From a virus (lineage: Duplodnaviria > Heunggongvirae > Uroviricota > Caudoviricetes): 38,978 nt of DNA. Positions 7,843 through 38,606 of the stretch are shown piece by piece. A program made the translations under genes and the position numbers. The DNA lies in IMG/VR virus record IMGVR_UViG_2713896784_000029; one strand, given 5' to 3'. The notes beneath the pieces were generated by a model. It made no database searches and was not told the DNA's origin. It saw only the letters and a list, made by a program, of their open reading frames with translations. Every line of letters starts with the position of its first letter. The first letter of the stretch is position 1.

Positions 7843-8394
7843 ATGATGATTTTACAACCCATGGGGCGAAAAGGCCGTGCACCCGCTCATGTTCGTGCAT
7901 GGACACCTGAAGAAGATGCGCTGCTGATTGCGCTTTATCCATCCACCCCGGTTAAGGATATTGCTGTCAGGGTAAAAAGAAGTTACTGGGGTGTATATAA
8001 CCGGATTGTTTTATTGCGCGGTACTTACCCGGAGTTGCTCAAATGCAAACGTCCCAGATTTAAACATGATGAAGATAAATTTATCCGAAAAAATGCCAGA
8101 ACAATGACCGGTAAGCAAATAGGAGAATATCTGGGGCGAGACCGGGACTCTGTCCACAATCGGGCGCGATATATTGGCGTAAGCATGAAAAAATACGGAG
8201 AGTTGCTGCCCTTCACCCGCATACCTGACGATGATGTTCGTCTTATTCGTGAATTACGGGATGCTGAATCACCACGGCGTCTTACCTTTAGGGAAATCGG
8301 CGAGAAATTTGAATTATCCGAGGGCACGGTGAGTTTTATTTATCACCGTCGTCGGACTGCCGAAGATGTTGTATTACGGGAGTTAATGCCATGA
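7843..8394 (+). CDS. hypothetical DNA-binding protein with three HTH-like repeats
   Basis: AGGGGG RBS; three internally similar ~50-aa segments each ending in a basic HTH-like helix (WGVYNRIVLLRG / VHNRARYIGV / VSFIYHRRR). Confidence 0.45.
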   Translation: MMILQPMGRKGRAPAHVRAWTPEEDALLIALYPSTPVKDIAVRVKRSYWGVYNRIVLLRGTYPELLKCKRPRFKHDEDKFIRKNARTMTGKQIGEYLGRDRDSVHNRARYIGVSMKKYGELLPFTRIPDDDVRLIRELRDAESPRRLTFREIGEKFELSEGTVSFIYHRRRTAEDVVLRELMP

Positions 8395-9951: not shown

Positions 9952-9955
9952 CCCC

Positions 9956-9989
9956 AAATCCCGCCACAACGCGGGATTTTTATTTTAAA
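9956..9989 (+). terminator. intrinsic terminator after gemA
   Basis: 9-bp stem AAATCCCGC / GCGGGATTT with 6-nt loop, followed by TTATTTTAAA. Confidence 0.6.
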
Positions 9990-10020
9990 CTTACCGGGAA
10001 CGCGAGAACCGGAGGCTGAT

Positions 10021-10446
10021 ATGACAGAAACTCAGATGAGCATGTTTGGTGGTGACAGTGAGCAACTGCACGCCCTTATCGACCGCCTTGATGACATCCC
10101 TGATGATGTTCTCAAAAAGAACTGGCCGCGGACCCTGTCTGAACTGGTTGAAGTCACCGGCGCAGAACTTCAGCGTCAGGGGATTGAGCCGGTACTGGCC
10201 GGTAAACTGGCACGCAAGGTGGCTGCGGCTCAGGCAGCCTATATGGGCGGACGGGGTTATTACCTGCCGGTCGGGGAATCTCTCTTTGCCGAGCTGCGAA
10301 ACAATGAGATATTTTCGCGCTGGGACCGGGGCGAGAAAATTGAATCCCTTCGCCGCCATTACCGGATGTCAGAAACCCAGATTTATACCGTCATACGTGA
10401 ACAGCGCCGTCTGCATCTGGCAAGAACGCAACCGCCACTTTTCTGA
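10021..10446 (+). CDS. Mor/C-family transcription activator
   Basis: 141 aa; C-terminal HTH region (SETQIYTVIREQRRLHL) and overall layout like Mu Mor/C; sits between gemA and lysis genes; RBS GGAGG. Confidence 0.7.
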   Translation: MTETQMSMFGGDSEQLHALIDRLDDIPDDVLKKNWPRTLSELVEVTGAELQRQGIEPVLAGKLARKVAAAQAAYMGGRGYYLPVGESLFAELRNNEIFSRWDRGEKIESLRRHYRMSETQIYTVIREQRRLHLARTQPPLF

Positions 10447-10517
10447 TATTCCGCAAAGCCTGCCGCCTTTCCTTCACCGTTACGCTGACTCAGAGAACAT
10501 CATGAGACAGCGTAACA

Positions 10518-11018
10518 ATGCCAAAACTCCCCGCACCACTGCGTAAAAAGCTGATTGCCCTTGTTCTGGCCGGTGCCGGGACGTTCACGATTGCCACGCA
10601 TTACACCGGTTACTGGGAAGGGAAAGAAAACTCCACGTATATCGATCCCACCGGTACACCCACCATCTGTTACGGCCATACCGGCCCGGATGTGAAACCG
10701 GGTATGACCCTGACGGATGAAGAATGTCTGAAACTGCTGGAAAAGGACATGAAATGGGCCTTTGCGGCCATTGATCGGCGTGTTCAGGTGCCGCTTACCC
10801 GTGGTCAGACGGTGGCGCTGGCTTCGTGGATCTTCTGGGCCGGTGAAACGAACTTTCGCAACTCCACGCTTCTGCGCCTGATCAATGCCGGACAGATGCC
10901 CGCGTCCTGTAAGCAGTATATCCGCTGGATTTATTCAAAGGGGGTGAAACTTCCCGGCCTTGAGGCCCGCCGTTCGGCGGATGAATGGTTATGTCGCTAC
11001 GACTTGCCGAAAGTCTGA
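10518..11018 (+). CDS. SAR endolysin (T4-lysozyme-like, glycoside hydrolase family 24)
   Basis: N-terminal hydrophobic signal-anchor KKLIALVLAGAGTFTIATHY followed by E-x8-D-x5-T catalytic signature (WEGKENSTYIDPTGTPT). Confidence 0.85.
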   Translation: MPKLPAPLRKKLIALVLAGAGTFTIATHYTGYWEGKENSTYIDPTGTPTICYGHTGPDVKPGMTLTDEECLKLLEKDMKWAFAAIDRRVQVPLTRGQTVALASWIFWAGETNFRNSTLLRLINAGQMPASCKQYIRWIYSKGVKLPGLEARRSADEWLCRYDLPKV

Positions 11019-21892: not shown

Positions 21893-22138
21893 ATGAAAAC
21901 CATCTTTATCAAACCCGCGCCGGGACGCCTGATTCGTGATCCCGACACAATGCGCCCGCTGGCACAGGAGGGGGAGGAAAAGCCCTTTACGCCGTTCTGG
22001 TGTCGGCGTCTTGATGACGGCGATGTCATTCAGGCTGAAAAAGCCGCTGAAGAGGCTCCGGCTGTATCTGCGGATGCAACGACTGCGACAGAAAAACCGG
22101 TCGCCCAACCGGCATCCGATAAGGAGAAACCGCAATGA
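21893..22138 (+). CDS. small acidic protein preceding tail sheath
   Basis: 81 aa with GGAGG RBS; Ala/Glu/Pro-rich C-terminus. Confidence 0.45.
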   Translation: MKTIFIKPAPGRLIRDPDTMRPLAQEGEEKPFTPFWCRRLDDGDVIQAEKAAEEAPAVSADATTATEKPVAQPASDKEKPQ

Positions 22139-23637
22139 TTAATTTTGACGGGATCGGTAATGACCGCCGTATACCGCTGATTGAGGTTGAGTTTAATAAC
22201 TCCATGGCTGTCACCGGCACTCCGGCACAGCGTCAGTGTGTGCTGCTGTTTGGTCAGGCGAGAATGAAAGAGAATGCCGTGGACGGTGCCGGTGTTCTGG
22301 ATGTTCCGGTCAGGATCACCCGTGCGTCTCAGGCAACAGAACTCTGGGGGCGCGGCTCCATGATTGCCCTGATGGTGGCGGAATTTATCGCCATCAATCC
22401 TGATGCTGAACTGTATGCCATTGCTCAGGGGAACGGCACCGGACAGGCAACGGCTGCGGCCATGAATCTGACCGGAACGGTCACCCGTGACGGGATTGTT
22501 TATGCCTGCGTGGGGGGGCGGCGTTATACACTCCCGGCACCAAAAGGTAAGAAAGGCAAAGAACTGACCGACGAGCTGGCCGCGCTGATCAATGCCGATC
22601 CTGACGCGCCCTTCACGGCCTCCTCTGGTGCAGGAAGTGGTGATAATGGCGCAGGTCTGAAAGGGTCTCTGGGGATCACCGCCCGCTTTACCGGTGAATG
22701 CTCCGTTCATGATGTGCGCCTGAACTATTACGACGGGGAAGCAACCCCGGAAGGAATACAGGTCGCTATAGCCTATCCGAAACAAAAAGCGGCTAACCCG
22801 GATATCACCCGAAGCGTGGCGGGGATGGGCGATCGCCAGTACAACTATGTCGTCATGCCCTATAAGGATGATGCAAACCTGAAAATCATCAGTGATGAGC
22901 TTCTGAAACGCTGGGGACCGGCCAAAATGTCTGACGGCGTGCTGTGGCTGGCACATACCGGCACGTTTGGTGAGGTGCAGGCATTCGGGGCAAAACGCAA
23001 TGATTTTCTGGCGACCTGCACATCCATTCCCAAAGCCCCTGAACCGGATTACCTCTGGGCAGCGGCGGTCTGTGCCACCTGTGCACCCTCTCTGGGAGCA
23101 GATCCTGCGCGTCCGCTTCAGACGCTGGCGCTTCCGTCACGCATGGCCCCGGCTCCGGCCGATCGTCTGACGCGTGAAGAGCGTAACAGTCTGCTGTGGG
23201 GAGGGATTGCCACGGTCAGTGTGGCTGCCGGTGATGTGGTTCAGATCGAACGTCAGGTGACCATGTATCGCCAGAACGTGTACGGCGAAAGTGATCCCAG
23301 CTATCTGGATGTGGAAACCATCTACACCCTCTCCTGGCTGCGTTATTCCCTGCGTACTTTTATCACACAACGTTTTCCGCGCCATAAACTGGCTGATGAC
23401 GGGACGCCCGTTCGTGCCGGTCAGAATATCGTGACGCCGGAGATCATGAAGCTTCAGTTAATTTCGCTGGGTGAAGAGTGGGTGGAACTCGGGCTGGTCG
23501 AAAATCTGGACACCTTTAAAAAGAATCTGCTTGTGGAGCGTAATGCGTCAGATCGAAACCGTCTTGACGTGTTATGCACGCCGGATCTGGTTAACCAGTT
23601 CCGCTTCCTGGCAGCACAGATCCGTTTCATTTTGTGA
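22135..23637 (+). CDS. contractile tail sheath protein (Mu L-like)
   Basis: 500 aa directly upstream of a ~120-aa tube gene; AAGGAGAAA RBS. Confidence 0.8.
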   Translation: MINFDGIGNDRRIPLIEVEFNNSMAVTGTPAQRQCVLLFGQARMKENAVDGAGVLDVPVRITRASQATELWGRGSMIALMVAEFIAINPDAELYAIAQGNGTGQATAAAMNLTGTVTRDGIVYACVGGRRYTLPAPKGKKGKELTDELAALINADPDAPFTASSGAGSGDNGAGLKGSLGITARFTGECSVHDVRLNYYDGEATPEGIQVAIAYPKQKAANPDITRSVAGMGDRQYNYVVMPYKDDANLKIISDELLKRWGPAKMSDGVLWLAHTGTFGEVQAFGAKRNDFLATCTSIPKAPEPDYLWAAAVCATCAPSLGADPARPLQTLALPSRMAPAPADRLTREERNSLLWGGIATVSVAAGDVVQIERQVTMYRQNVYGESDPSYLDVETIYTLSWLRYSLRTFITQRFPRHKLADDGTPVRAGQNIVTPEIMKLQLISLGEEWVELGLVENLDTFKKNLLVERNASDRNRLDVLCTPDLVNQFRFLAAQIRFIL

Positions 23638-23645
23638 GGTAAGGC

Positions 23646-24011
23646 ATGAGCGGAAAACAGTATCAGGGTACGGCCACTATCCGTGTGAACGGTCAGGAAT
23701 ACGAGACGCTTGAGGGGGCTACATTTTCTCCGTCTGGTTTTGAACGTGAAGTGGTGAAAGGCGCGAAAGTCTATGGTTACCGCCAGAAACCACGTGAAGC
23801 GACGCTGGACTGCAAATTTCCGGCAGGCGGAGAAGGTTCACCAGCCGCCGATGAAATCAACAACTGGACTGCGGTCACTATCGAGTTTGTGGCGGATACC
23901 GGCGAAGTCCACATGATGACGAAGGCCTGGAGCAGTGAACCGGCCTCGCTTGACGGTGGCGGGGAGATCTCCGTGAAGTTCGCCAGCGCCTCCAGTACCC
24001 GTGTTCAGTGA
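23646..24011 (+). CDS. tail tube protein (Mu M-like)
   Basis: 121 aa following sheath gene. Confidence 0.7.
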   Translation: MSGKQYQGTATIRVNGQEYETLEGATFSPSGFEREVVKGAKVYGYRQKPREATLDCKFPAGGEGSPAADEINNWTAVTIEFVADTGEVHMMTKAWSSEPASLDGGGEISVKFASASSTRVQ

Positions 24012-24502
24012 TCAGGAAAAATAAAATGACCACACGTAAGAAAAAAACGGCAGTTTCCGAGGCAGCCGTGATGGAGGCAATCCGGGAAGCACTTGAGGGG
24101 GCTGATCCACGCACTGCCGGGCTGACAGAGCAACTGGCAAAGGGATATGTGGATCTGCTTGATGGTCTGCCGTTTGGTGAGACCCGTGAATATCGTGTCA
24201 CGTTCCGGGAACTGACAGCGAAAGACAGTATTGACGCAGAAGCAGAAGCCGAGCGCGTGGTGGAGACAAACAATGGCCCGATGCTGATAGCGTCTCCGTC
24301 GTTACGCGGTGTTGCACTGCTGCGCCGTCAGATTGCCGCAGTGGGAGACATTGAAGGTCCGTTGTCACCCCGTCAGATTGGACAGTTAAGCGAGCGCGAT
24401 CTCTCCCGCCTGATGGCAGCGGTCAGCCTGCTGGATACCGCGCTTGCCGGAAAGCTGGCAGCTGACCGGGGGCGATCAGGCGCAGTGTCGGGATCAGATT
24501 GA
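24008..24502 (+). CDS. tail assembly chaperone (between tube and tape measure)
   Basis: 164 aa; an overlapping second-frame ORF (24444-24626) fills the gap to the tape-measure start, the typical two-ORF chaperone layout. Confidence 0.5.
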   Translation: MIRKNKMTTRKKKTAVSEAAVMEAIREALEGADPRTAGLTEQLAKGYVDLLDGLPFGETREYRVTFRELTAKDSIDAEAEAERVVETNNGPMLIASPSLRGVALLRRQIAAVGDIEGPLSPRQIGQLSERDLSRLMAAVSLLDTALAGKLAADRGRSGAVSGSD

Positions 24503-24628
24503 AGAAGCGGCAATTATCCTGGGGATGGTGACAAAAAGCGGTCCGGAATGGGCGCTTAACCTCCCCCTGTCGCAACTTTACCGGCACTGCCGACAGACAG
24601 AAAAAATCATCAGAACGAAGCAGTAAGT

Positions 24629-26704
24629 ATGGCCCGAAATCTCAGAGCATCTCTGATAGTTGATTTGCTCGGCAATATCTCAGCCAAATCCCGCCAGTGG
24701 TCACAGGAGCTGGGGGCATTCTCACGCTCCGGCCAGGCGGGGCTGGGTGGCCTGGGAAATGCTGCCCGCCGTGCCGGGCAGGAAACAGATGTACTCGGAA
24801 GCAGGATGCAGCGCACGCTGGCCGGGGTGCGGGGCAGTATCCGCCATGTCACTTCTGATTTTGACCGTCTTCAGGGCAGTATTACCGGCACCATCGGGCG
24901 GATCAGCAATCTTTACGGAATGCTGGCCGGTGGTGCTGCTGTATATGGCTTTAACCGGGGATTTATTCGCCCGGCAGCGGAGATGGAAACCTATATGATT
25001 CGCCTGAACTCCCTTTACAAAGGGGATCGGGCGAAAACTGATGATGTCCGCAGGTGGGCAATACAGAATGCGAAGGAAACCACCTGGGGGCTGGCTGGCG
25101 TCATGCAGGAATATACGTCCAGTCTGGGCTTTGGTATGAGTGACAGGGAGGCCCGAAATTTTGTCACCATGCTTCAGGATCAGGGTGCCGTGGGCGGCTG
25201 GTCACTGTCCGATGCACAGGGGGCATCCCTGCAACTGAAACAGATGTATGCAAGAGGCAGTATTCAGGCGGCGGATGCAAATATTCTTGCCACCTACGGC
25301 ATTAATGCCTACCGCGTGCTGGCTGATCGTCTGGGTGTGGACCAGAAAGTGGTCAGAAAACTTGGTGAAAAAGGGCTGCTTGGGCCGGACAGTATTCGCC
25401 TGTTATTTCAGACGCTGGCGGAACAGGCCAGGGGAGCACAAAAGGACGCAATGAATTCCTGGAGTGGCCTGACGGCCATGATGGGTGACGTCTGGGATCA
25501 GTTTGCCCGGGATGTGATGGACAGTGGGCCATTTGAAAAACTGAAGGGTAATCTCAGGGGATTTCTTTCATGGGTTGACAGTGCCAAATCTGATGGCAGT
25601 TACCATTCCCTGGCGGAAAGCACGGCATCAGCCATGAACCAGGGCTTTGAGTATGCCCGTGATGCAGTGACAGGGTTTTATCAGGCGATCAGAAAGGTAC
25701 GCGACACGCTTCAGGCTCTGCGGGATGCGGGCTATGGTGATGCGCTGGATCGCATTGGTCAGGGGGCACAGACCGCCGCGAAATACCTGCTGTACATGTA
25801 TCTCGCCACCCGTGCCCTGAAAATGGCGCGGGCTGTCGGAACGGGGATTATACGTCCGGGTGCTGCATTGCTGGGATACGGATTATCAGCGGCGGCCTTC
25901 CTGACCTCACCTTTCCGGCGCTCTCCTCCGGCCGGAACACCACCAGGCACATCTCAGGGACGAGGGCAACGTTTTATAAACTTTCTTACCGGGGTAAATC
26001 CGGCAGCCGTTCAGCCAGTACTTGTAACAAACTGGCCCACAGGAGGACTGTCCGGCACCGGCGCGACCGATACATCCTCAGGCGGACGTCAGGGGCGGGG
26101 CCGCAGGAAACGCGGACCGGGGCGCGGAAGGCCGGTCACGCCTCCCCTGCCACCGTCCCCAGTGCCACCGTCTCCCTCTTCTGGTGGGGCAGGGTTCTGG
26201 GGGCGCATGATGGGGCGCGCCGGTGGGTTACTTTCGTCTGTCGGTAGCCGCATGGGGCTGGGGCGTTTCTCCGGCTTTTTCCGCAGTGCCGGTGGACTGG
26301 CCGGCCGGCTGGGTGGAGGTGCCCTGTGGGCTGGCGCGATGGCAGCCCCGGTTCTGCTGGATGGCAGCGCCAGTGCCACAGACAAGGGAGAAGCGGTCGG
26401 CTCTCTTGCAGGCAGTATTGCCGGTGGTGCGCTGGGGGCGGCAGCCGGACCTGTGGGGATTGCCATTGGTTCTACGGTGGGCAGCTATCTCGGTAACTAT
26501 CTGGGGGGATGGCTGACTGAAGCCTGGCAGAAATTACGGGGCAGTGATGATGAAAGCAGTGGACAGGCGGTACAAAAAGCCTCTGCCCGTGTGGAGCTGG
26601 TTGCCCCGGAAGGGTGGCAGGCTCGCAGTATTGATATTGATGACACGTCCGGTCACGGACTGGATGTGAATGTCTGGAACGGAGGGAATTATGGCCTCTG
26701 GTGA
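24629..26704 (+). CDS. tail tape measure protein
   Basis: 691 aa with helical N-terminal half and long Gly/Ala/Pro-rich low-complexity C-terminal region; position after chaperone. Confidence 0.8.
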   Translation: MARNLRASLIVDLLGNISAKSRQWSQELGAFSRSGQAGLGGLGNAARRAGQETDVLGSRMQRTLAGVRGSIRHVTSDFDRLQGSITGTIGRISNLYGMLAGGAAVYGFNRGFIRPAAEMETYMIRLNSLYKGDRAKTDDVRRWAIQNAKETTWGLAGVMQEYTSSLGFGMSDREARNFVTMLQDQGAVGGWSLSDAQGASLQLKQMYARGSIQAADANILATYGINAYRVLADRLGVDQKVVRKLGEKGLLGPDSIRLLFQTLAEQARGAQKDAMNSWSGLTAMMGDVWDQFARDVMDSGPFEKLKGNLRGFLSWVDSAKSDGSYHSLAESTASAMNQGFEYARDAVTGFYQAIRKVRDTLQALRDAGYGDALDRIGQGAQTAAKYLLYMYLATRALKMARAVGTGIIRPGAALLGYGLSAAAFLTSPFRRSPPAGTPPGTSQGRGQRFINFLTGVNPAAVQPVLVTNWPTGGLSGTGATDTSSGGRQGRGRRKRGPGRGRPVTPPLPPSPVPPSPSSGGAGFWGRMMGRAGGLLSSVGSRMGLGRFSGFFRSAGGLAGRLGGGALWAGAMAAPVLLDGSASATDKGEAVGSLAGSIAGGALGAAAGPVGIAIGSTVGSYLGNYLGGWLTEAWQKLRGSDDESSGQAVQKASARVELVAPEGWQARSIDIDDTSGHGLDVNVWNGGNYGLW

Positions 26705-33787: not shown

Positions 33788-34348
33788 ATGCTGATTGGCT
33801 ATATACGCGTATCAACAAATGACCAGAACACAGGTTTACAAAGAAATGCGCTGGAATGTGCAGGATGTGAGCAGATTTTTGAAGATAAAATGAGTGGTAA
33901 AACGACACAGCGGCCGGGACTGAAGCGGGCACTGAAGAAACTAAAACCCGGTGACACACTGATGGTCTGGAAACTGGACAGGCTGGGGCGCAGTATGCGC
34001 CACCTTGTTGCGCTGACAGATGAATTACAGCAACAGGGGATAAATTTTCGTAGTCTTACTGACAACATTGATACGTCAACCCCCATGGGGCGCTTCTTTT
34101 TTCACATAATGGGTGCGCTGGCAGAAATGGAGCGTGAATTAATTGTCGAACGGACACGGGCTGGTCTTGCAGCTGCCCGTGAAAGGGGACGAACCGGCGG
34201 CAGACCCCGTCGTCTCACGCAGGAACAATACGAGCAGGTCGGGCGTTTACTGGCCGGGGGTGTCAGTCGAAGACAGGTGGCACTTATTTTTGATATCGGC
34301 CTTTCAACCCTTTATCGTTATTATCCTGCGAGCGTTTCGGAAAAATAA
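33788..34348 (+). CDS. gin: serine recombinase, Gin/Hin/Pin/Cin-family DNA invertase
   Basis: 186 aa; MLIGYIRVSTNDQNTGLQRNAL... with catalytic Ser in RVST and C-terminal HTH (QVALIFDIGLSTLYRY); very close to Mu Gin as recalled. Confidence 0.9.
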   Translation: MLIGYIRVSTNDQNTGLQRNALECAGCEQIFEDKMSGKTTQRPGLKRALKKLKPGDTLMVWKLDRLGRSMRHLVALTDELQQQGINFRSLTDNIDTSTPMGRFFFHIMGALAEMERELIVERTRAGLAAARERGRTGGRPRRLTQEQYEQVGRLLAGGVSRRQVALIFDIGLSTLYRYYPASVSEK

Positions 34349-34447: not shown

Positions 34448-36487
34448 ATGACGTCCAAATGGGTTCAACTATCATCAATGCCCGGAAACTTTACTGTTAA
34501 AGTTTCCGGTGGTACAGCGGCATTTCTTGAGGCTCCCTTTCCTCCGGCCGAAACAAAAGGAGGAATGACATTTGCTGACTGTCTCATCAGTTTTAATACA
34601 CGGGATTGCCTGTGGGTAAGGCCAGTATCCGGTGATCCGAGTGTGGAAATTACCGGAGCGGGTATTGGTGCGGTCATTCCGTTAAGTGCTGATGTTGCCG
34701 GTACTGCTGAACCGTCAGACTGGGATAATGCTGAAACACATACCCGTCCGTCAGGAAATGAAACTGCTTCCAGCTCCCCTTCCTGGTATTACGTGGTGGT
34801 TCTTGCTGGTCAGTCAAACGGTATGGCTTACGGTGAAGGTCTGCCACTGCCGGAGACATATGACCGCCCCGAACCGCGTATTATGCAGTTAGCCCGTCGC
34901 AGTACAGTCACGCCGGGAGGTAAAGCCTGTCAGTATAACGACATCATTCTGGCCGACCACTGTCTGCATGATGTGCAGGATATGAGTGGAAAAAATCACC
35001 CGAAAGCGGATGTGGCTAAAGGGCAATATGGCACCGTGGGTCAGGGGCTTCACATTGCCAAAAAACTGCTGCCGTTTATTCCGGCAGATGCGGGGATTCT
35101 GCTGGTTCCCTGCTGCCGTGGTGGTTCTGCATTCACGGCGGGTGCTGACGGCACGTACAGTGACAGCACGGGTGCTTCAGAGGACTCAGCCCGCTGGGGT
35201 GTGGATAAGCCGCTGTATAAGGACTTAATCAGCCGGACAAAAGCGGCACTGGCGAAGAACCCGAAAAACCGCCTGCTTGCTGTGGTGTGGATGCAGGGCG
35301 AGTTTGATATTGATGCGAAGCCGACGGAGCATTCCGCGCTGTTTCTGGCGATGGTGGAAAAATTCCGCGCAGACCTGGCTGAACAGGCGGAACAGTGTAC
35401 CGGTGGCAGTGCTGCTGGCGTTCCGTGGATTTGTGGCGATACCACGTATTTCTGGAAACAGAAAAATGAACCGGCATACCAGGCAATCTATGGCGGCTAC
35501 AAAAACAAAACAGATAAAAACATTCATTTCGTTCCATTAATGACAGATGAAAATGACGCGAATGTACCCACCAACAATCCGGCAGAAGACCCGGATATTG
35601 AATCCATTGGTTATTACGGCTCAACGTGGCGTAACAGTGCCGCCACCTGGACATCTGCGGACCGGGCCAGCCATTTCAGTTCATGGGCACGTCGTGGGAT
35701 TATTTCCGACCGTCTGGCCACGGCAGTTCTGACTCATGCGGGGCGAACCACAGTAAAAGCCGATGTTCCATCTTCTGAAACTGAAGCACCAGTGCCGTCA
35801 CCTTCAGAAACTGAAGCAGTAACCACAACACTGCTGTCTTATCGTGTCAGTGAGTCAGAAGGAAATCTGAAAGCCCAGGGCTGGGAGCCGGCTGGCGGTA
35901 AAGCTGAAATTATCAGTGATGCAGGAGGCACAGGTGGTAAGGCAATGAAACTGACCAAGGAAACAGGTAAATCATCCTGGTATCTGGATCATGATGCCGG
36001 TACTGGTGCTGAACTGCTGAAAAATGGTGGTTTAATCAGTTGTCGTTTTAAAGTACCTGGCGACCTGGTGGCAAACCAGTATGTCATGGGGCTTTACTGG
36101 CCGGTTTCCTCTCTGCCGCAGGGTGTCACCCTGACAGGGGATGCAGGGAATAATCTGCTGGCATCGTTCTACATCCAGACAGACGCAAAAGACCTGAATG
36201 TGATGTACCACAATGCAAAAGTGGCAACAAATAACCAGAAACTGGGAACCTTTGGTGCATTTGATAATGAATGGCATACGCTGGCCTTCCGTTTTGCAGG
36301 AAATAACAGCCTTCAGGTTATTCCGGTTATTGATGGTCAGGATGGTGCCGCGTTTACCCTGACGCAGTCACCAGTAGGAACTTTCCCGGTGGACAAACTC
36401 CGCGTAACGGATATCACAAAAAATGCAACTTACCCGGTGCTGATTGACAGCATTGTGGTGGAAGTGAAAAAAGCGGTAACAGAATAA
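34448..36487 (+). CDS. cargo SASA/SGNH-type carbohydrate O-acetylesterase (prophage NanS-p-like) with C-terminal beta-rich domain
   Basis: 679 aa; VVVLAGQSNGMAYGEG (Ser motif) and VVWMQGEFD (WxQGE.D) match the sialate O-acetylesterase family signature; SETEA-SETEA linker then ~230-aa beta-rich domain; located between gin and com where Mu has no gene. Confidence 0.6.
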   Translation: MTSKWVQLSSMPGNFTVKVSGGTAAFLEAPFPPAETKGGMTFADCLISFNTRDCLWVRPVSGDPSVEITGAGIGAVIPLSADVAGTAEPSDWDNAETHTRPSGNETASSSPSWYYVVVLAGQSNGMAYGEGLPLPETYDRPEPRIMQLARRSTVTPGGKACQYNDIILADHCLHDVQDMSGKNHPKADVAKGQYGTVGQGLHIAKKLLPFIPADAGILLVPCCRGGSAFTAGADGTYSDSTGASEDSARWGVDKPLYKDLISRTKAALAKNPKNRLLAVVWMQGEFDIDAKPTEHSALFLAMVEKFRADLAEQAEQCTGGSAAGVPWICGDTTYFWKQKNEPAYQAIYGGYKNKTDKNIHFVPLMTDENDANVPTNNPAEDPDIESIGYYGSTWRNSAATWTSADRASHFSSWARRGIISDRLATAVLTHAGRTTVKADVPSSETEAPVPSPSETEAVTTTLLSYRVSESEGNLKAQGWEPAGGKAEIISDAGGTGGKAMKLTKETGKSSWYLDHDAGTGAELLKNGGLISCRFKVPGDLVANQYVMGLYWPVSSLPQGVTLTGDAGNNLLASFYIQTDAKDLNVMYHNAKVATNNQKLGTFGAFDNEWHTLAFRFAGNNSLQVIPVIDGQDGAAFTLTQSPVGTFPVDKLRVTDITKNATYPVLIDSIVVEVKKAVTE

Positions 36488-37714: not shown

Positions 37715-37915
37715 ATGTATCGAAACATACGGTGCCGACACTGCAATAAGCTACTGGCACGGGCCAGTTTCAGTTATCTGGAAGTAAAATGTCCGCGCTG
37801 TAAAACCCTCAATCAAATCACATCTCCGAGCGCCACAGAGCACCCCACATACACAAGGAAATCCTGTCGTGGGGAACAGAAAGCAAGTCACATCCCGAAT
37901 CATCAGCACGCCTGA
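37715..37915 (+). CDS. com: Com zinc-finger translational activator of mom
   Basis: [30 protein letters not shown] parallels Mu Com (IRCKNCNKLL...IRCPRCK); ORF overlaps the mom start as in Mu. Confidence 0.8.
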
Positions 37916-38606
37916 ACTTATTCGCTATAACGACAATATCGTTGGTTATGGCTCCCGTGAGTTGCGGGTTGAGACAATAAGTTGCTGGCTGGCCAGACTG
38001 GTCATCGTCAATAAACATTACAGCCACCGTTTCGTAAATAACTCCTACCTTCATCTGGGCATATTTTCAGAACGGGAACTTGTTGGCGTAATGCAATGGG
38101 GTTACGCCCTTAACCCAAACAGTGGTGCACGCGTCGTAACGGGTACGCAGAACCGAGAATATATGGAGCTTAACCGGCTATGGCTGCATGACTGTATGCC
38201 GAGAAACTCCGAATCAAGGGCAATCAGTTACGCGCTCAAGCTAATCAGGCAGCTTTATCCGCAGGTACAGTGGGTTCAGTCGTTTGCAGATGAGCGTTGT
38301 GGCTGTCTTGGTGTCGTGTATCAGGCAAGCAATTTTGATTATGTAGGCAGCCATGAATCAATATTCTATGAACTTGATGGCGAGTGGTATCACGAGATTT
38401 GCAGGAATGCCATTAAACGAGGCGGACAACGAGGTGAACATCTGAGGGCTAATATTGACAGAGCCAGTGTTCATAAGTTCCGACAGTTTCGTTACATCCG
38501 GTTTCTGAACAAGAGGGCCAGAAAACGCCTCAACACAAAGCTATTCAAAGTCCAGCCTTACCCAAAACCACAAACAGTTAAAACTGGTTTGAAAGAGAGT
38601 GAATGA
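37869..38606 (+). CDS. mom: Mom DNA-modification protein
   Basis: 245-aa ORF immediately downstream of and overlapping com, last gene before the right end, as in Mu; exact start uncertain. Confidence 0.7.

What the first reader, a model, noticed from the sequence alone, without database searches (positions are those of the whole stretch)
24008..24626. Possible programmed frameshift in the tail assembly chaperone
A second ORF in the +1 frame (24444-24626) overlaps the chaperone 3' end and stops 2 bp before the tape-measure start, the arrangement seen for G/GT-type chaperones. The overlap contains CCGGGGGCG and ACAAAAAGC runs. The required shift would be +1 or -2 rather than the common -1, so this is tentative; an internal ATG at 24525 could instead give an independent small protein.
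Basis: inference. Interest (0 to 1): 0.35.

Follow-up and report, generated by a model that had tools for sequence, protein, structure and literature searches.

The report
Mu-type -2 frameshift in tail chaperone
This Mu-like E. coli prophage carries the same rare "slip back two bases" recoding signal (GG GGG CGA) that phage Mu is known to use to make a longer version of its tail-assembly chaperone, so the finding is real but is an unannotated copy of a known mechanism.

Summary
A +1/-2-frame ORF (24444-24626) overlaps the 3' end of the tail assembly chaperone (24026-24502, Pfam Gp41_Mu) and stops 2 nt before the tape-measure ATG (24629).

The window is a complete Mu-like prophage, 100% identical across this region to a prophage in ~195 complete E. 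coli genomes. At 24468-24475 it carries GG GGG CGA in the register CGG GGG CGA.

In 68-69 unique relatives (17 clusters at 70% aa identity):
- The phased heptamer G GGG CGA is invariant, while other invariant Gly/Arg columns use 3-6 synonymous codons.
- The -2 frame runs 37-47 codons to the tape-measure start.
- The extension peptide is conserved (55% identical to Mu's).
- It has a coding substitution pattern and no conserved start codon or RBS.
- No downstream RNA structure was detected.

The predicted products are a 158-aa chaperone and a 200-aa fusion. ACAAAAAGC lies outside the overlap and is irrelevant.

Verdict: real, but an orthologue of a known recoding event that RefSeq leaves unannotated. 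Interest is low.

The parts
23646..24011 (+). Tail tube gene, the upstream neighbour that defines the module order tube, chaperone, tape measure
   Evidence: Pfam Tail_tube PF10618, E=3.3e-31; PHROG 185
24014..24017 (+). AGGA Shine-Dalgarno, 8 nt upstream of the chaperone ATG
   Evidence: Read directly from the sequence; RefSeq starts the CDS at the equivalent ATG
24026..24502 (+). Tail assembly chaperone, 0-frame product (158 aa, 16.8 kDa), Mu gp41 homologue
   Evidence: Pfam Gp41_Mu PF23746, E=7e-32; Phage_TAC_7; PHROG 508 'tail assembly chaperone', E=1.6e-48; 49% identical to Mu gp41 by tblastn
24468..24475 (+). Shift site GG GGG CGA. P-site codon GGG is 24470-24472 and A-site codon CGA is 24473-24475. 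The invariant heptamer G GGG CGA is 24469-24475
   Evidence: Identical octamer and register in Mu. Described as the Mu -2 tandem-slippage site. GGG in 69/69 and CGA in 69/69 unique sequences, against 3-6 synonymous codons at control columns. The 5' G is present in 68/68
24474..24626 (+). -2-frame extension: 50 codons (DQAQCRDQIEE...IIRTKQ) plus TAA. The fusion CDS is join(24026..24475, 24474..24626), giving 200 aa and 21.9 kDa
   Evidence: Translation. PHROG 12783, E=4e-39. 55% identity to the Mu extension, E=5e-20. Conserved across 54 unique extensions. Substitutions by codon position 46/29/81
24629..26704 (+). Tape measure protein gene, which starts 2 nt after the extension's stop
   Evidence: Pfam TMP_3, E=1.9e-18; PHROG 973, E=1.2e-224

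Best explanation
This is a Mu-type programmed -2 ribosomal frameshift in the tail assembly chaperone gene of a Mu-like prophage.

Most ribosomes read 24026-24502 and release the 158-aa gp41-like chaperone. A small fraction shift instead; the figure reported for Mu is about 2%. The shift happens with tRNA-Gly on GGG (24470-24472) in the P site and tRNA-Arg(ICG) on CGA (24473-24475) in the A site. Both tRNAs slip back two bases. The Gly tRNA re-pairs perfectly with GGG (24468-24470). The Arg tRNA re-pairs with GGC (24471-24473) at two of three positions, replacing the poor I:A wobble with I:C.

Reading then continues from GAT (24474) for 50 codons to TAA at 24624-24626, giving a 200-aa fusion (...AADRGR-DQAQCRDQ...). 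The signal appears to be the bare heptamer, since no downstream RNA structure was found.

By analogy with lambda gpG/gpGT and P2 gpE/E+E', the two proteins would share a tape-measure-binding body. The rarer long form would carry an extra C-terminal domain needed for tail tube assembly around the tape measure.

Status of each step:
- Shown here: all the sequence features and their conservation.
- Taken from the literature on Mu: that this octamer shifts ribosomes by -2.
- Inferred: that this prophage does the same, and what the two products do.
For: - Homology and synteny: the order sheath, tube, Gp41_Mu chaperone, tape measure.
- Site identity: window GAC CGG GGG CGA TCA against Mu GAA CGG GGG CGA GTG, same phase.
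- Family-wide conservation over 95 loci, 68-69 unique sequences and 17 clusters at 70% aa identity. The phased heptamer is present in every locus except L060, a homopolymer-error case.
- Codon control: GGG and CGA are fixed 69/69, while other invariant Gly/Arg columns use 3-6 codons. P(GGG,CGA | Gly-Arg) is 0.013 under this phage's own codon usage.
- The -2 frame is open for 37-47 codons past the 0-frame stop and ends within -23 to +14 nt of the tape-measure start. The -1 frame closes early.
- In Mu, L011 and L084 the -2 frame opens only 9-12 nt upstream of the site, which confines the shift to the heptamer.
- The extension is protein-coding: the peptide is conserved, third-position substitutions dominate, and the window versus L029 shows 8 synonymous to 2 non-synonymous changes.
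- Direction: the base 5' of GGG is G in 68/68 loci across CGG, AGG, AAG, CAG and TCG. Backward re-pairing needs that G and +1 slippage does not.
Against: - There is no experimental evidence for this prophage. Everything specific to it is comparative.
- RefSeq does not annotate a fusion in the identical prophage.
- The heptamer is not rare. Four other in-phase G GGG CGA sites lie inside other genes of the window, so the motif alone does not prove function.
- About 12 of 68 unique relatives have AAG, CAG or TCG before GGG, so P-site re-pairing after -2 would be imperfect there. The simple tandem re-pairing model may therefore be incomplete.
- Databases disagree on the Mu junction residue. GenBank UIW09302.1 has RGR-EWL and UniProt P0DJY4 has RGG-EWL.
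- The primary paper (PMID 15469818) could not be read.
Confidence: 0.88

Rival explanations
1. A +1 ribosomal frameshift at the same place. The P-site tRNA-Gly slips forward from GGG to GGC while the A site waits on the slowly decoded CGA codon. The fusion would be one residue shorter (199 aa, ...DRG-DQAQ...).
For: It reaches the same frame. The invariant CGA fits a 'hungry codon' +1 model equally well. The G4 variants (AAG/CAG/TCG GGG CGA) pair imperfectly after a -2 slip but would behave the same as G5 sites in a +1 slip.
Against: The base 5' of GGG is G in 68/68 unique loci, even though the codon and amino acid vary (R, K, Q, S). A +1 slip does not need that base. Mu, with the identical octamer, is recorded as a verified -2 shift. 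Both curated Mu fusion proteins are 188 aa, the -2 length, and the 187-aa +1 product is not in the collection.
Confidence: 0.06
2. The downstream ORF is an independent small gene, translated from its own start: TTG 24444, ATG 24525 or GTG 24528.
For: Start codons exist in the window. Some annotations call the equivalent ORF a separate 'hypothetical protein' (D108 gp41.5; E. coli M3). PHROG 12783 and a few 44-64-aa database entries represent such calls.
Against: No candidate start in the window has a Shine-Dalgarno at 4-10 nt, and only three such hits appear in any relative, at non-conserved positions (L088, L089, L008). No start position is conserved. ATG 24525 aligns to GTT in Mu. L002 (D108), L074 and L079 have no ATG/GTG/TTG anywhere in the -2 ORF. 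The most conserved N-terminal part of the extension (G-[DE]-W-x-x-C-R...) lies upstream of ATG 24525. This model does not explain why GGG CGA is invariant.
Confidence: 0.03
3. Transcriptional slippage by RNA polymerase on the G5 run. Loss of one G in a fraction of mRNAs would put the extension in frame.
For: A one-G deletion does give an in-frame fusion, as seen in some assemblies (L060, L095, P0001, P0100).
Against: The run is only 5 G, and only 4 G in about 12 unique relatives. From general knowledge, that is well below the roughly 7-9-nt homopolymers usually needed. This model does not explain the invariant CGA. The fused assemblies carry additional homopolymer deletions elsewhere (CC to C in L095, a second G5 to G4 in L060), which points to sequencing or assembly error.
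Confidence: 0.02
4. A chance open frame or decayed gene. The 126-nt gap would be non-coding, or the locus a frameshift-mutated pseudogene.
For: An open frame of this length is expected about 17% of the time at this GC content. Alternative-frame ORFs abound in the window.
Against: The same arrangement, site and peptide are conserved from Escherichia to Vibrio, Shewanella and Pasteurella phages, including viable isolated phages (Mu, D108, SfMu). The substitution pattern is that of coding sequence.
Confidence: 0.01

Closest known systems
Phage Mu gp41 / FS-gp41 (Mu_41 / Mu_56): programmed -2 frameshift, Xu, Hendrix & Duda 2004 (PMID 15469818)
   Same: Homologous chaperone (Pfam Gp41_Mu, 49% aa identity). 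Identical octamer GG GGG CGA in the same codon register. Homologous 50-aa extension (55% identity). Same position between the tube and tape-measure genes, and the same -2 frame relationship.
   Different: The window's chaperone has a 14-residue longer N-terminal region. The site lies 9 codons before the 0-frame stop, against 7 in Mu. The extension stops 2 nt before the tape-measure ATG, against 14 nt in Mu. The -2 frame is open 57 nt upstream of the site, against 12 nt in Mu. There is no experimental verification for this prophage.
Lambda gpG / gpGT tail assembly chaperones (-1 frameshift; slippery site G GGA AAG from my own knowledge)
   Same: Same logic and genome position. Two products share an N-terminus and are made at a fixed low ratio from the gene between the tail tube and tape-measure genes (for the conserved arrangement; lambda details from established knowledge).
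   Different: The direction is -2, not -1. There is no X XXY YYZ heptamer. The -1 frame closes after 21 codons, at 24531. No sequence similarity to G/T was detected, and Pfam finds nothing for the extension.
P2 gpE / gpE+E' (Pfam Phage_TAC_7; -1 frameshift in a contractile-tail phage)
   Same: A contractile-tail phage. There is a weak Pfam Phage_TAC_7 match (E=1.1e-5), and the role is the same.
   Different: P2 uses a -1 shift on a T-rich heptamer (my own knowledge). Here the shift is -2 on a G-rich site.
E. coli dnaX -1 frameshift (A AAA AAG, with an upstream SD-like element and a downstream stem-loop)
   Same: A bacterial programmed backward slip. A minority of relatives have SD-like strings 5-12 nt upstream of the site, reminiscent of the dnaX enhancer.
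   Different: No downstream structure was found here. The window and Mu lack a convincing upstream SD. The shift size and slippery sequence differ.
Arterivirus nsp2TF -2 frameshift
   Same: One of the few other natural -2 events.
   Different: It is eukaryotic and viral, with a different slippery sequence. From my own knowledge it is stimulated in trans by a protein complex. The gene is unrelated.

Membership tests
Mu-type -2 programmed frameshift in gp41-family tail assembly chaperones | The upstream ORF is a Mu gp41 homologue | tested here: met
   Pfam PF23746 Gp41_Mu, E=7e-32, full-length profile match 1-107/107; tblastn to Mu gives 49% identity, E=2e-26
Mu-type -2 programmed frameshift in gp41-family tail assembly chaperones | The gene lies between the tail tube and tape-measure genes of a contractile-tail module | tested here: met
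   Sheath 22135-23637, tube 23646-24011, chaperone 24026-24502, tape measure 24629-26704
Mu-type -2 programmed frameshift in gp41-family tail assembly chaperones | Slippery octamer GG GGG CGA with GGG and CGA as 0-frame codons, near the 3' end of the ORF | tested here: met
   24468-24475, register CGG GGG CGA, 9 codons before the stop. It is the only GGGGGCGA in the window
Mu-type -2 programmed frameshift in gp41-family tail assembly chaperones | A -2/+1-frame extension of about 50 codons, homologous to Mu's, that ends at the tape-measure start | tested here: met
   50 codons to TAA at 24624-24626, 2 nt before the ATG; 55% identity to the Mu extension, E=5e-20
Mu-type -2 programmed frameshift in gp41-family tail assembly chaperones | A fusion protein is actually produced by -2 slippage, at a low fixed ratio | not testable with these tools
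   Verified only for Mu (note). This needs protein expression and mass spectrometry for this prophage
Lambda G/GT-type -1 frameshift | An X XXY YYZ slippery heptamer and a -1-frame ORF that extends to the tape-measure gene | tested here: not met
   The -1 frame is open only over 24466-24531 (21 codons) and stops 97 nt before the tape-measure start. It is short in most relatives too
Structure-stimulated frameshift signals (dnaX and IS-element type) | A stable or conserved stem-loop or pseudoknot 5-9 nt downstream of the slippery site | tested here: not met
   Fold z-scores are +0.62 (window) and -0.22 (Mu). RNAalifold on 25 diverse sequences gives 0 pairs. Rfam gives no match
Independent small ORF (PHROG 12783 / D108 gp41.5 style annotation) | A conserved start codon with a ribosome-binding site | tested here: not met
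   There is no conserved start and no conserved Shine-Dalgarno at 4-10 nt; only three isolated weak hits occur, at non-conserved positions. Three lineages have no ATG/GTG/TTG in the ORF at all

The most novel reading that the evidence does not exclude
The Mu-type -2 shift may not be a single-phage curiosity. It may be a widespread recoding class that needs no RNA structure and whose minimal signal is the bare heptamer G GGG CGA. The heptamer is conserved in at least 17 chaperone lineages across Enterobacterales, Vibrio, Shewanella, Pasteurella and Alteromonadaceae phages. These include G4 variants (AAG/CAG/TCG GGG CGA) in which the P-site tRNA cannot fully re-pair after a -2 slip. Some clades may also be helped by an upstream SD-like element. 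If the G4 variants still shift by -2, the accepted tandem re-pairing model for this site is incomplete.
Probability: 0.4. Interest if true: 0.3.

Novelty: new member of a known kind. Interest (0 to 1): 0.15.

Why it matters
There are two practical points.

First, the roughly 125-nt 'gap' between the chaperone and tape-measure genes is coding. RefSeq leaves it unannotated in this widespread prophage, which is identical across this region in about 195 complete E. coli genomes, many of them O157:H7. Elsewhere it is mis-called as a separate hypothetical protein. It should be annotated as join(24026..24475, 24474..24626).

Second, -2 frameshifting is very rare in nature. The family-wide invariance of G GGG CGA, the lack of any 3' structure and the existence of G4 variants give recoding specialists a ready comparative data set. 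None of this changes the known picture of tail assembly chaperones.

Tried and rejected
- **-1 frameshift (lambda/P2 style).** The -1 frame closes at 24531, and it is short in most relatives.
- **ACAAAAAGC as a slip site.** It lies at 24531-24539, downstream of the 0-frame stop, so it cannot link the frames. It occurs three times in the window.
- **Downstream stimulatory RNA.** Single-sequence folds are no better than shuffles. RNAalifold gives 0 pairs over 25 diverse sequences. Rfam finds nothing in the window.
- **Independent initiation.** No conserved start or Shine-Dalgarno.
- **'Natural fused genes' in databases (P0001, P0099-P0101, L060, L095).** These trace to G5 to G4 changes, plus other homopolymer losses in L060 and L095, and are most likely assembly errors.
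- **Solved-structure homologues of the fusion.** None found; the best hit has E=0.25 and is unrelated.
- **Representative-library search with the 50-aa extension.** It returned only a few 44-64-aa stand-alone ORF calls and two low-identity repetitive proteins. No conventional protein carries the extension in-frame.
- **Genome-contig scans.** Comparative data therefore come from GenBank phages, E. coli RefSeq genomes and IMG/VR.
- **Primary paper.** PMID 15469818 is not held.
- **ORF length as evidence.** Rejected as a statistic, because long alternative-frame ORFs are common here.
- **Not attempted.** Structure prediction of the fusion. Only four fused sequences were eligible for submission, so the model would have been unreliable, and it would not bear on the recoding question.

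Full report
**1. What is in the sequence**

The region belongs to a contractile-tail module:
- Sheath, 22135-23637.
- Tail tube, 23646-24011.
- A 158-aa ORF, 24026-24502.
- A 691-aa tape-measure gene starting at ATG 24629.

The 158-aa protein is a full-length member of Pfam Gp41_Mu (E=7e-32). It also matches PHROG 508, 'tail assembly chaperone'. Its probable start is ATG 24026, preceded by AGGA at 24014-24017. This is the start RefSeq uses in an identical prophage.

A second ORF is open in the +1/-2 frame. It runs from 24414 stop to stop, or from TTG 24444 as listed, to TAA at 24624-24626, which is 2 nt before the tape-measure ATG.

CCGGGGGCG is at 24466-24474, inside the overlap. ACAAAAAGC is at 24531-24539, 29 nt beyond the chaperone stop, so it is irrelevant to any frame change.

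The open frame is not significant on its own. About 17% of random frames would be open for this length at this GC content, and alternative-frame ORFs are common here.

**2. What the window is**

The window encodes MuA and MuB transposition proteins, a Gin-type invertase and Mom, so it is a complete Mu-like prophage. The 615-nt region is at least 99% identical in 195 records of the complete E. coli genome collection, many of them O157:H7. It is 80-90% identical in 34 more.

**3. The known precedent**

The GenBank record of phage Mu (AF083977) carries a two-piece CDS, Mu_56. Its note reads 'verified -2 translational frameshift in PMID 15469818; tail assembly chaperone frameshift product'. It overlaps Mu_41, the gp41 chaperone.

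The literature supports this:
- PMC3458567 describes tandem -2 slippage on GG GGG CGA. The A-site tRNA-Arg (anticodon ICG) pairs better in the -2 frame than in the -1 frame.
- PMC3498833 gives an efficiency of about 2.2% and calls it the only known natural programmed -2 case at that time.
- PMC5009743 lists Mu among the few -2 cases.

I could not read the primary paper.

**4. The window has the same signal**

Mu reads GAA CGG GGG CGA GTG. The window reads GAC CGG GGG CGA TCA, in the same codon register. After a -2 shift both continue into homologous peptides that are 55% identical (E=5e-20):
- Window: DQAQCRDQIEEAAIILGMVTKSGPEWALNLPLSQLYRHCRQTEKIIRTKQ
- Mu: EWLRCRNDIEKAATAIGVILKSGPEWALSLPLSRFFRHCQQAKTLSQYHR

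The predicted fusion is join(24026..24475, 24474..24626). It is 200 aa and 21.9 kDa, against 158 aa and 16.8 kDa for the 0-frame product.

**5. Comparative test**

I collected 95 loci: the window, 14 GenBank or RefSeq loci, and 80 IMG/VR loci. They give 69 unique chaperone sequences, which fall into 28 clusters at 90% and 17 clusters at 70% aa identity.

- **(a) The site is conserved.** The phased octamer xGG GGG CGA, or at least the phased heptamer G GGG CGA, is present in every locus but one. The variants are AAG, CAG and TCG before GGG CGA. In a 101-column alignment of 25 diverse relatives, the only invariant block is those 7 nt.
- **(b) Codon control.** At the site, Gly is GGG in 69/69 and Arg is CGA in 69/69. 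Five other invariant Gly or Arg columns of the same protein use 3-6 synonymous codons each. CGA is only 6% of Arg codons and GGG 21% of Gly codons in this phage.
- **(c) Frame extents.** The -2 frame runs 37-47 codons past the 0-frame stop and ends within -23 to +14 nt of the tape-measure start. The -1 frame closes early.
- **(d) The extension is coding.** The peptide is conserved at about 48-53 aa with an LP(L)..L.R core. Substitutions fall 46/29/81 on codon positions 1/2/3. Close relatives show mostly synonymous change, for example 8:2 for the window versus L029.
- **(e) The shift is confined.** In Mu, L011 and L084 the -2 frame opens only 9-12 nt upstream of the site. In the Vibrio and Shewanella phages the 0 frame stops two codons after it. 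The shift must therefore occur at the heptamer.
- **(f) Direction.** The base 5' of GGG is G in 68/68 unique loci. The codon carrying it varies: CGG 52, AAG 8, AGG 4, TCG 3, CAG 1, encoding R, K, Q and S. Backward re-pairing needs that base and +1 slippage does not.

**6. Rivals**

- **Independent initiation.** No start codon is conserved, and none has a conserved, correctly spaced Shine-Dalgarno. ATG 24525 aligns to GTT in Mu. D108, L074 and L079 have no ATG/GTG/TTG in the whole -2 ORF.
- **+1 slippage.** It cannot be excluded from sequence alone. It is disfavoured by point (f), by the Mu precedent, and by both curated Mu products having the -2 length of 188 aa.
- **Transcriptional slippage.** It is unlikely on a 4-5-nt G run, and it does not explain the invariant CGA.
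- **'Fused' database proteins.** P0001, P0099-P0101, L060 and L095 arise from G5 to G4 changes. L060 and L095 carry other homopolymer losses as well, which is typical of assembly error.

**7. Stimulators**

No downstream RNA structure was found. Fold z-scores are +0.62 for the window and -0.22 for Mu. RNAalifold gives 0 pairs, and Rfam finds nothing.

SD-like strings are modestly enriched 5-12 nt upstream: about 19-29% of 52 unique loci, against 8.5% background. They sit mainly in distant clades. Mu lacks one, and the window has only a weak GGAAAG.

**8. Specificity**

Four other in-phase G GGG CGA heptamers occur inside other genes of the window, at 2198, 7863, 8133 and 35740. A -2 shift at those sites would terminate within 3-19 codons, deep inside long genes. 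Only the chaperone site combines three things: a G5 run, a position 9 codons from the gene's end, and a 50-codon conserved extension that ends at the next gene.

**9. Mechanism and function**

- **Shown:** the anatomy and its conservation.
- **From the literature on Mu:** this octamer shifts ribosomes by -2 at about 2%.
- **Inferred:** the same happens in this prophage, giving a major 158-aa form and a minor 200-aa form.

By analogy with lambda gpG/gpGT and P2 gpE/E+E' (established knowledge, and for the conserved arrangement), both forms would bind the tape measure. The extension on the rare form would provide the contact needed to start tube polymerisation.

The extension has no Pfam family, no solved-structure relative, and no in-frame counterpart in conventional proteins.

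**10. Verdict**

The locus is an orthologue of a known, experimentally verified recoding event, so novelty and interest are low.

The useful outputs are:
- An annotation correction for a widespread E. coli prophage. RefSeq leaves 24503-24628 unannotated, or calls a separate hypothetical protein elsewhere.
- A comparative picture of the -2 signal, including the G4 variants.

Noticed in passing
Related loci L036-L043, L045, L047, L052, L066, L070 (site equivalent to window 24467-24475): A Salmonella/Klebsiella-like clade and a few others carry AAG, CAG or TCG GGG CGA instead of CGG GGG CGA. With only four Gs, the P-site tRNA-Gly could re-pair at only 2 of 3 positions after a -2 slip. The extension frame and peptide are nevertheless fully conserved.
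   Followed up: partly
5-12 nt upstream of the shift site in L011, L012, L013, L084, L086, L089, L090 and others; window 24449-24454 has only GGAAAG: SD-like strings (GGAG, GGAGG, AAGGAG) are enriched upstream of the site: about 19-29% of 52 unique loci at <= -4 kcal/mol against 8.5% background. This recalls the dnaX upstream enhancer. They are absent in Mu and weak in the window. The test was not corrected for phylogeny.
   Followed up: partly
Mu fusion protein entries: Curated databases disagree on the Mu junction residue. GenBank UIW09302.1 reads ...QERGR-EWLRC... (tandem slip, Arg retained). UniProt P0DJY4 'FS-gp41' reads ...QERGG-EWLRC....
   Followed up: partly
L095 (NCTC draft GCA_900449035.1), L060, P0001, P0099-P0101: Database proteins that look like naturally fused chaperones come from assemblies with G5 to G4 at the shift site. 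L095 (CC to C) and L060 (a second G5 to G4) also carry other single-base homopolymer losses, so these are probably assembly errors and not real fusion alleles.
   Followed up: yes
Window 24503-24628; L004 (E. coli E2865), L005 (E. coli M3), L002 (D108): RefSeq PGAP leaves the extension unannotated in the identical prophage. In strain M3 and in D108 (gp41.5) it is annotated as a separate 48-aa 'hypothetical protein'; the D108 gp41.5 call appears to begin at a CTG rather than a canonical start. PHROG 12783 ('unknown function') is built from such calls.
   Followed up: yes
Window 2198, 7863, 8133, 35740 (all + strand, in phase); also 10328: All six GGGGCGA occurrences in the window are on the + strand. 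Five of them are in the G GGG CGA register of a proxy gene: the MuA transposase, the 7843-8394 ORF (twice), the chaperone and the 679-aa SASA protein. A -2 shift at the four non-chaperone sites would terminate within 3-19 codons.
   Followed up: partly
Window 34448-36487 (+): A 679-aa protein with a sialate O-acetylesterase-type SASA domain plus DUF6645 sits between the Gin-type invertase (33788-34348) and Mom (37869-38606). It looks like a cargo or accessory gene in the Mu-like prophage.
   Followed up: no
L004 1-812 (E. coli E2865), equivalent to window 22135-23637: RefSeq flags the tail sheath gene as a 'frameshifted' pseudogene in strain E2865. The window's copy is an intact 500-aa ORF.
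   Followed up: no
Window 9952-10546 (+): Two long overlapping open frames on the same strand (9952-10446 and 10040-10546, about 164 and 168 codons). Not examined.
   Followed up: no
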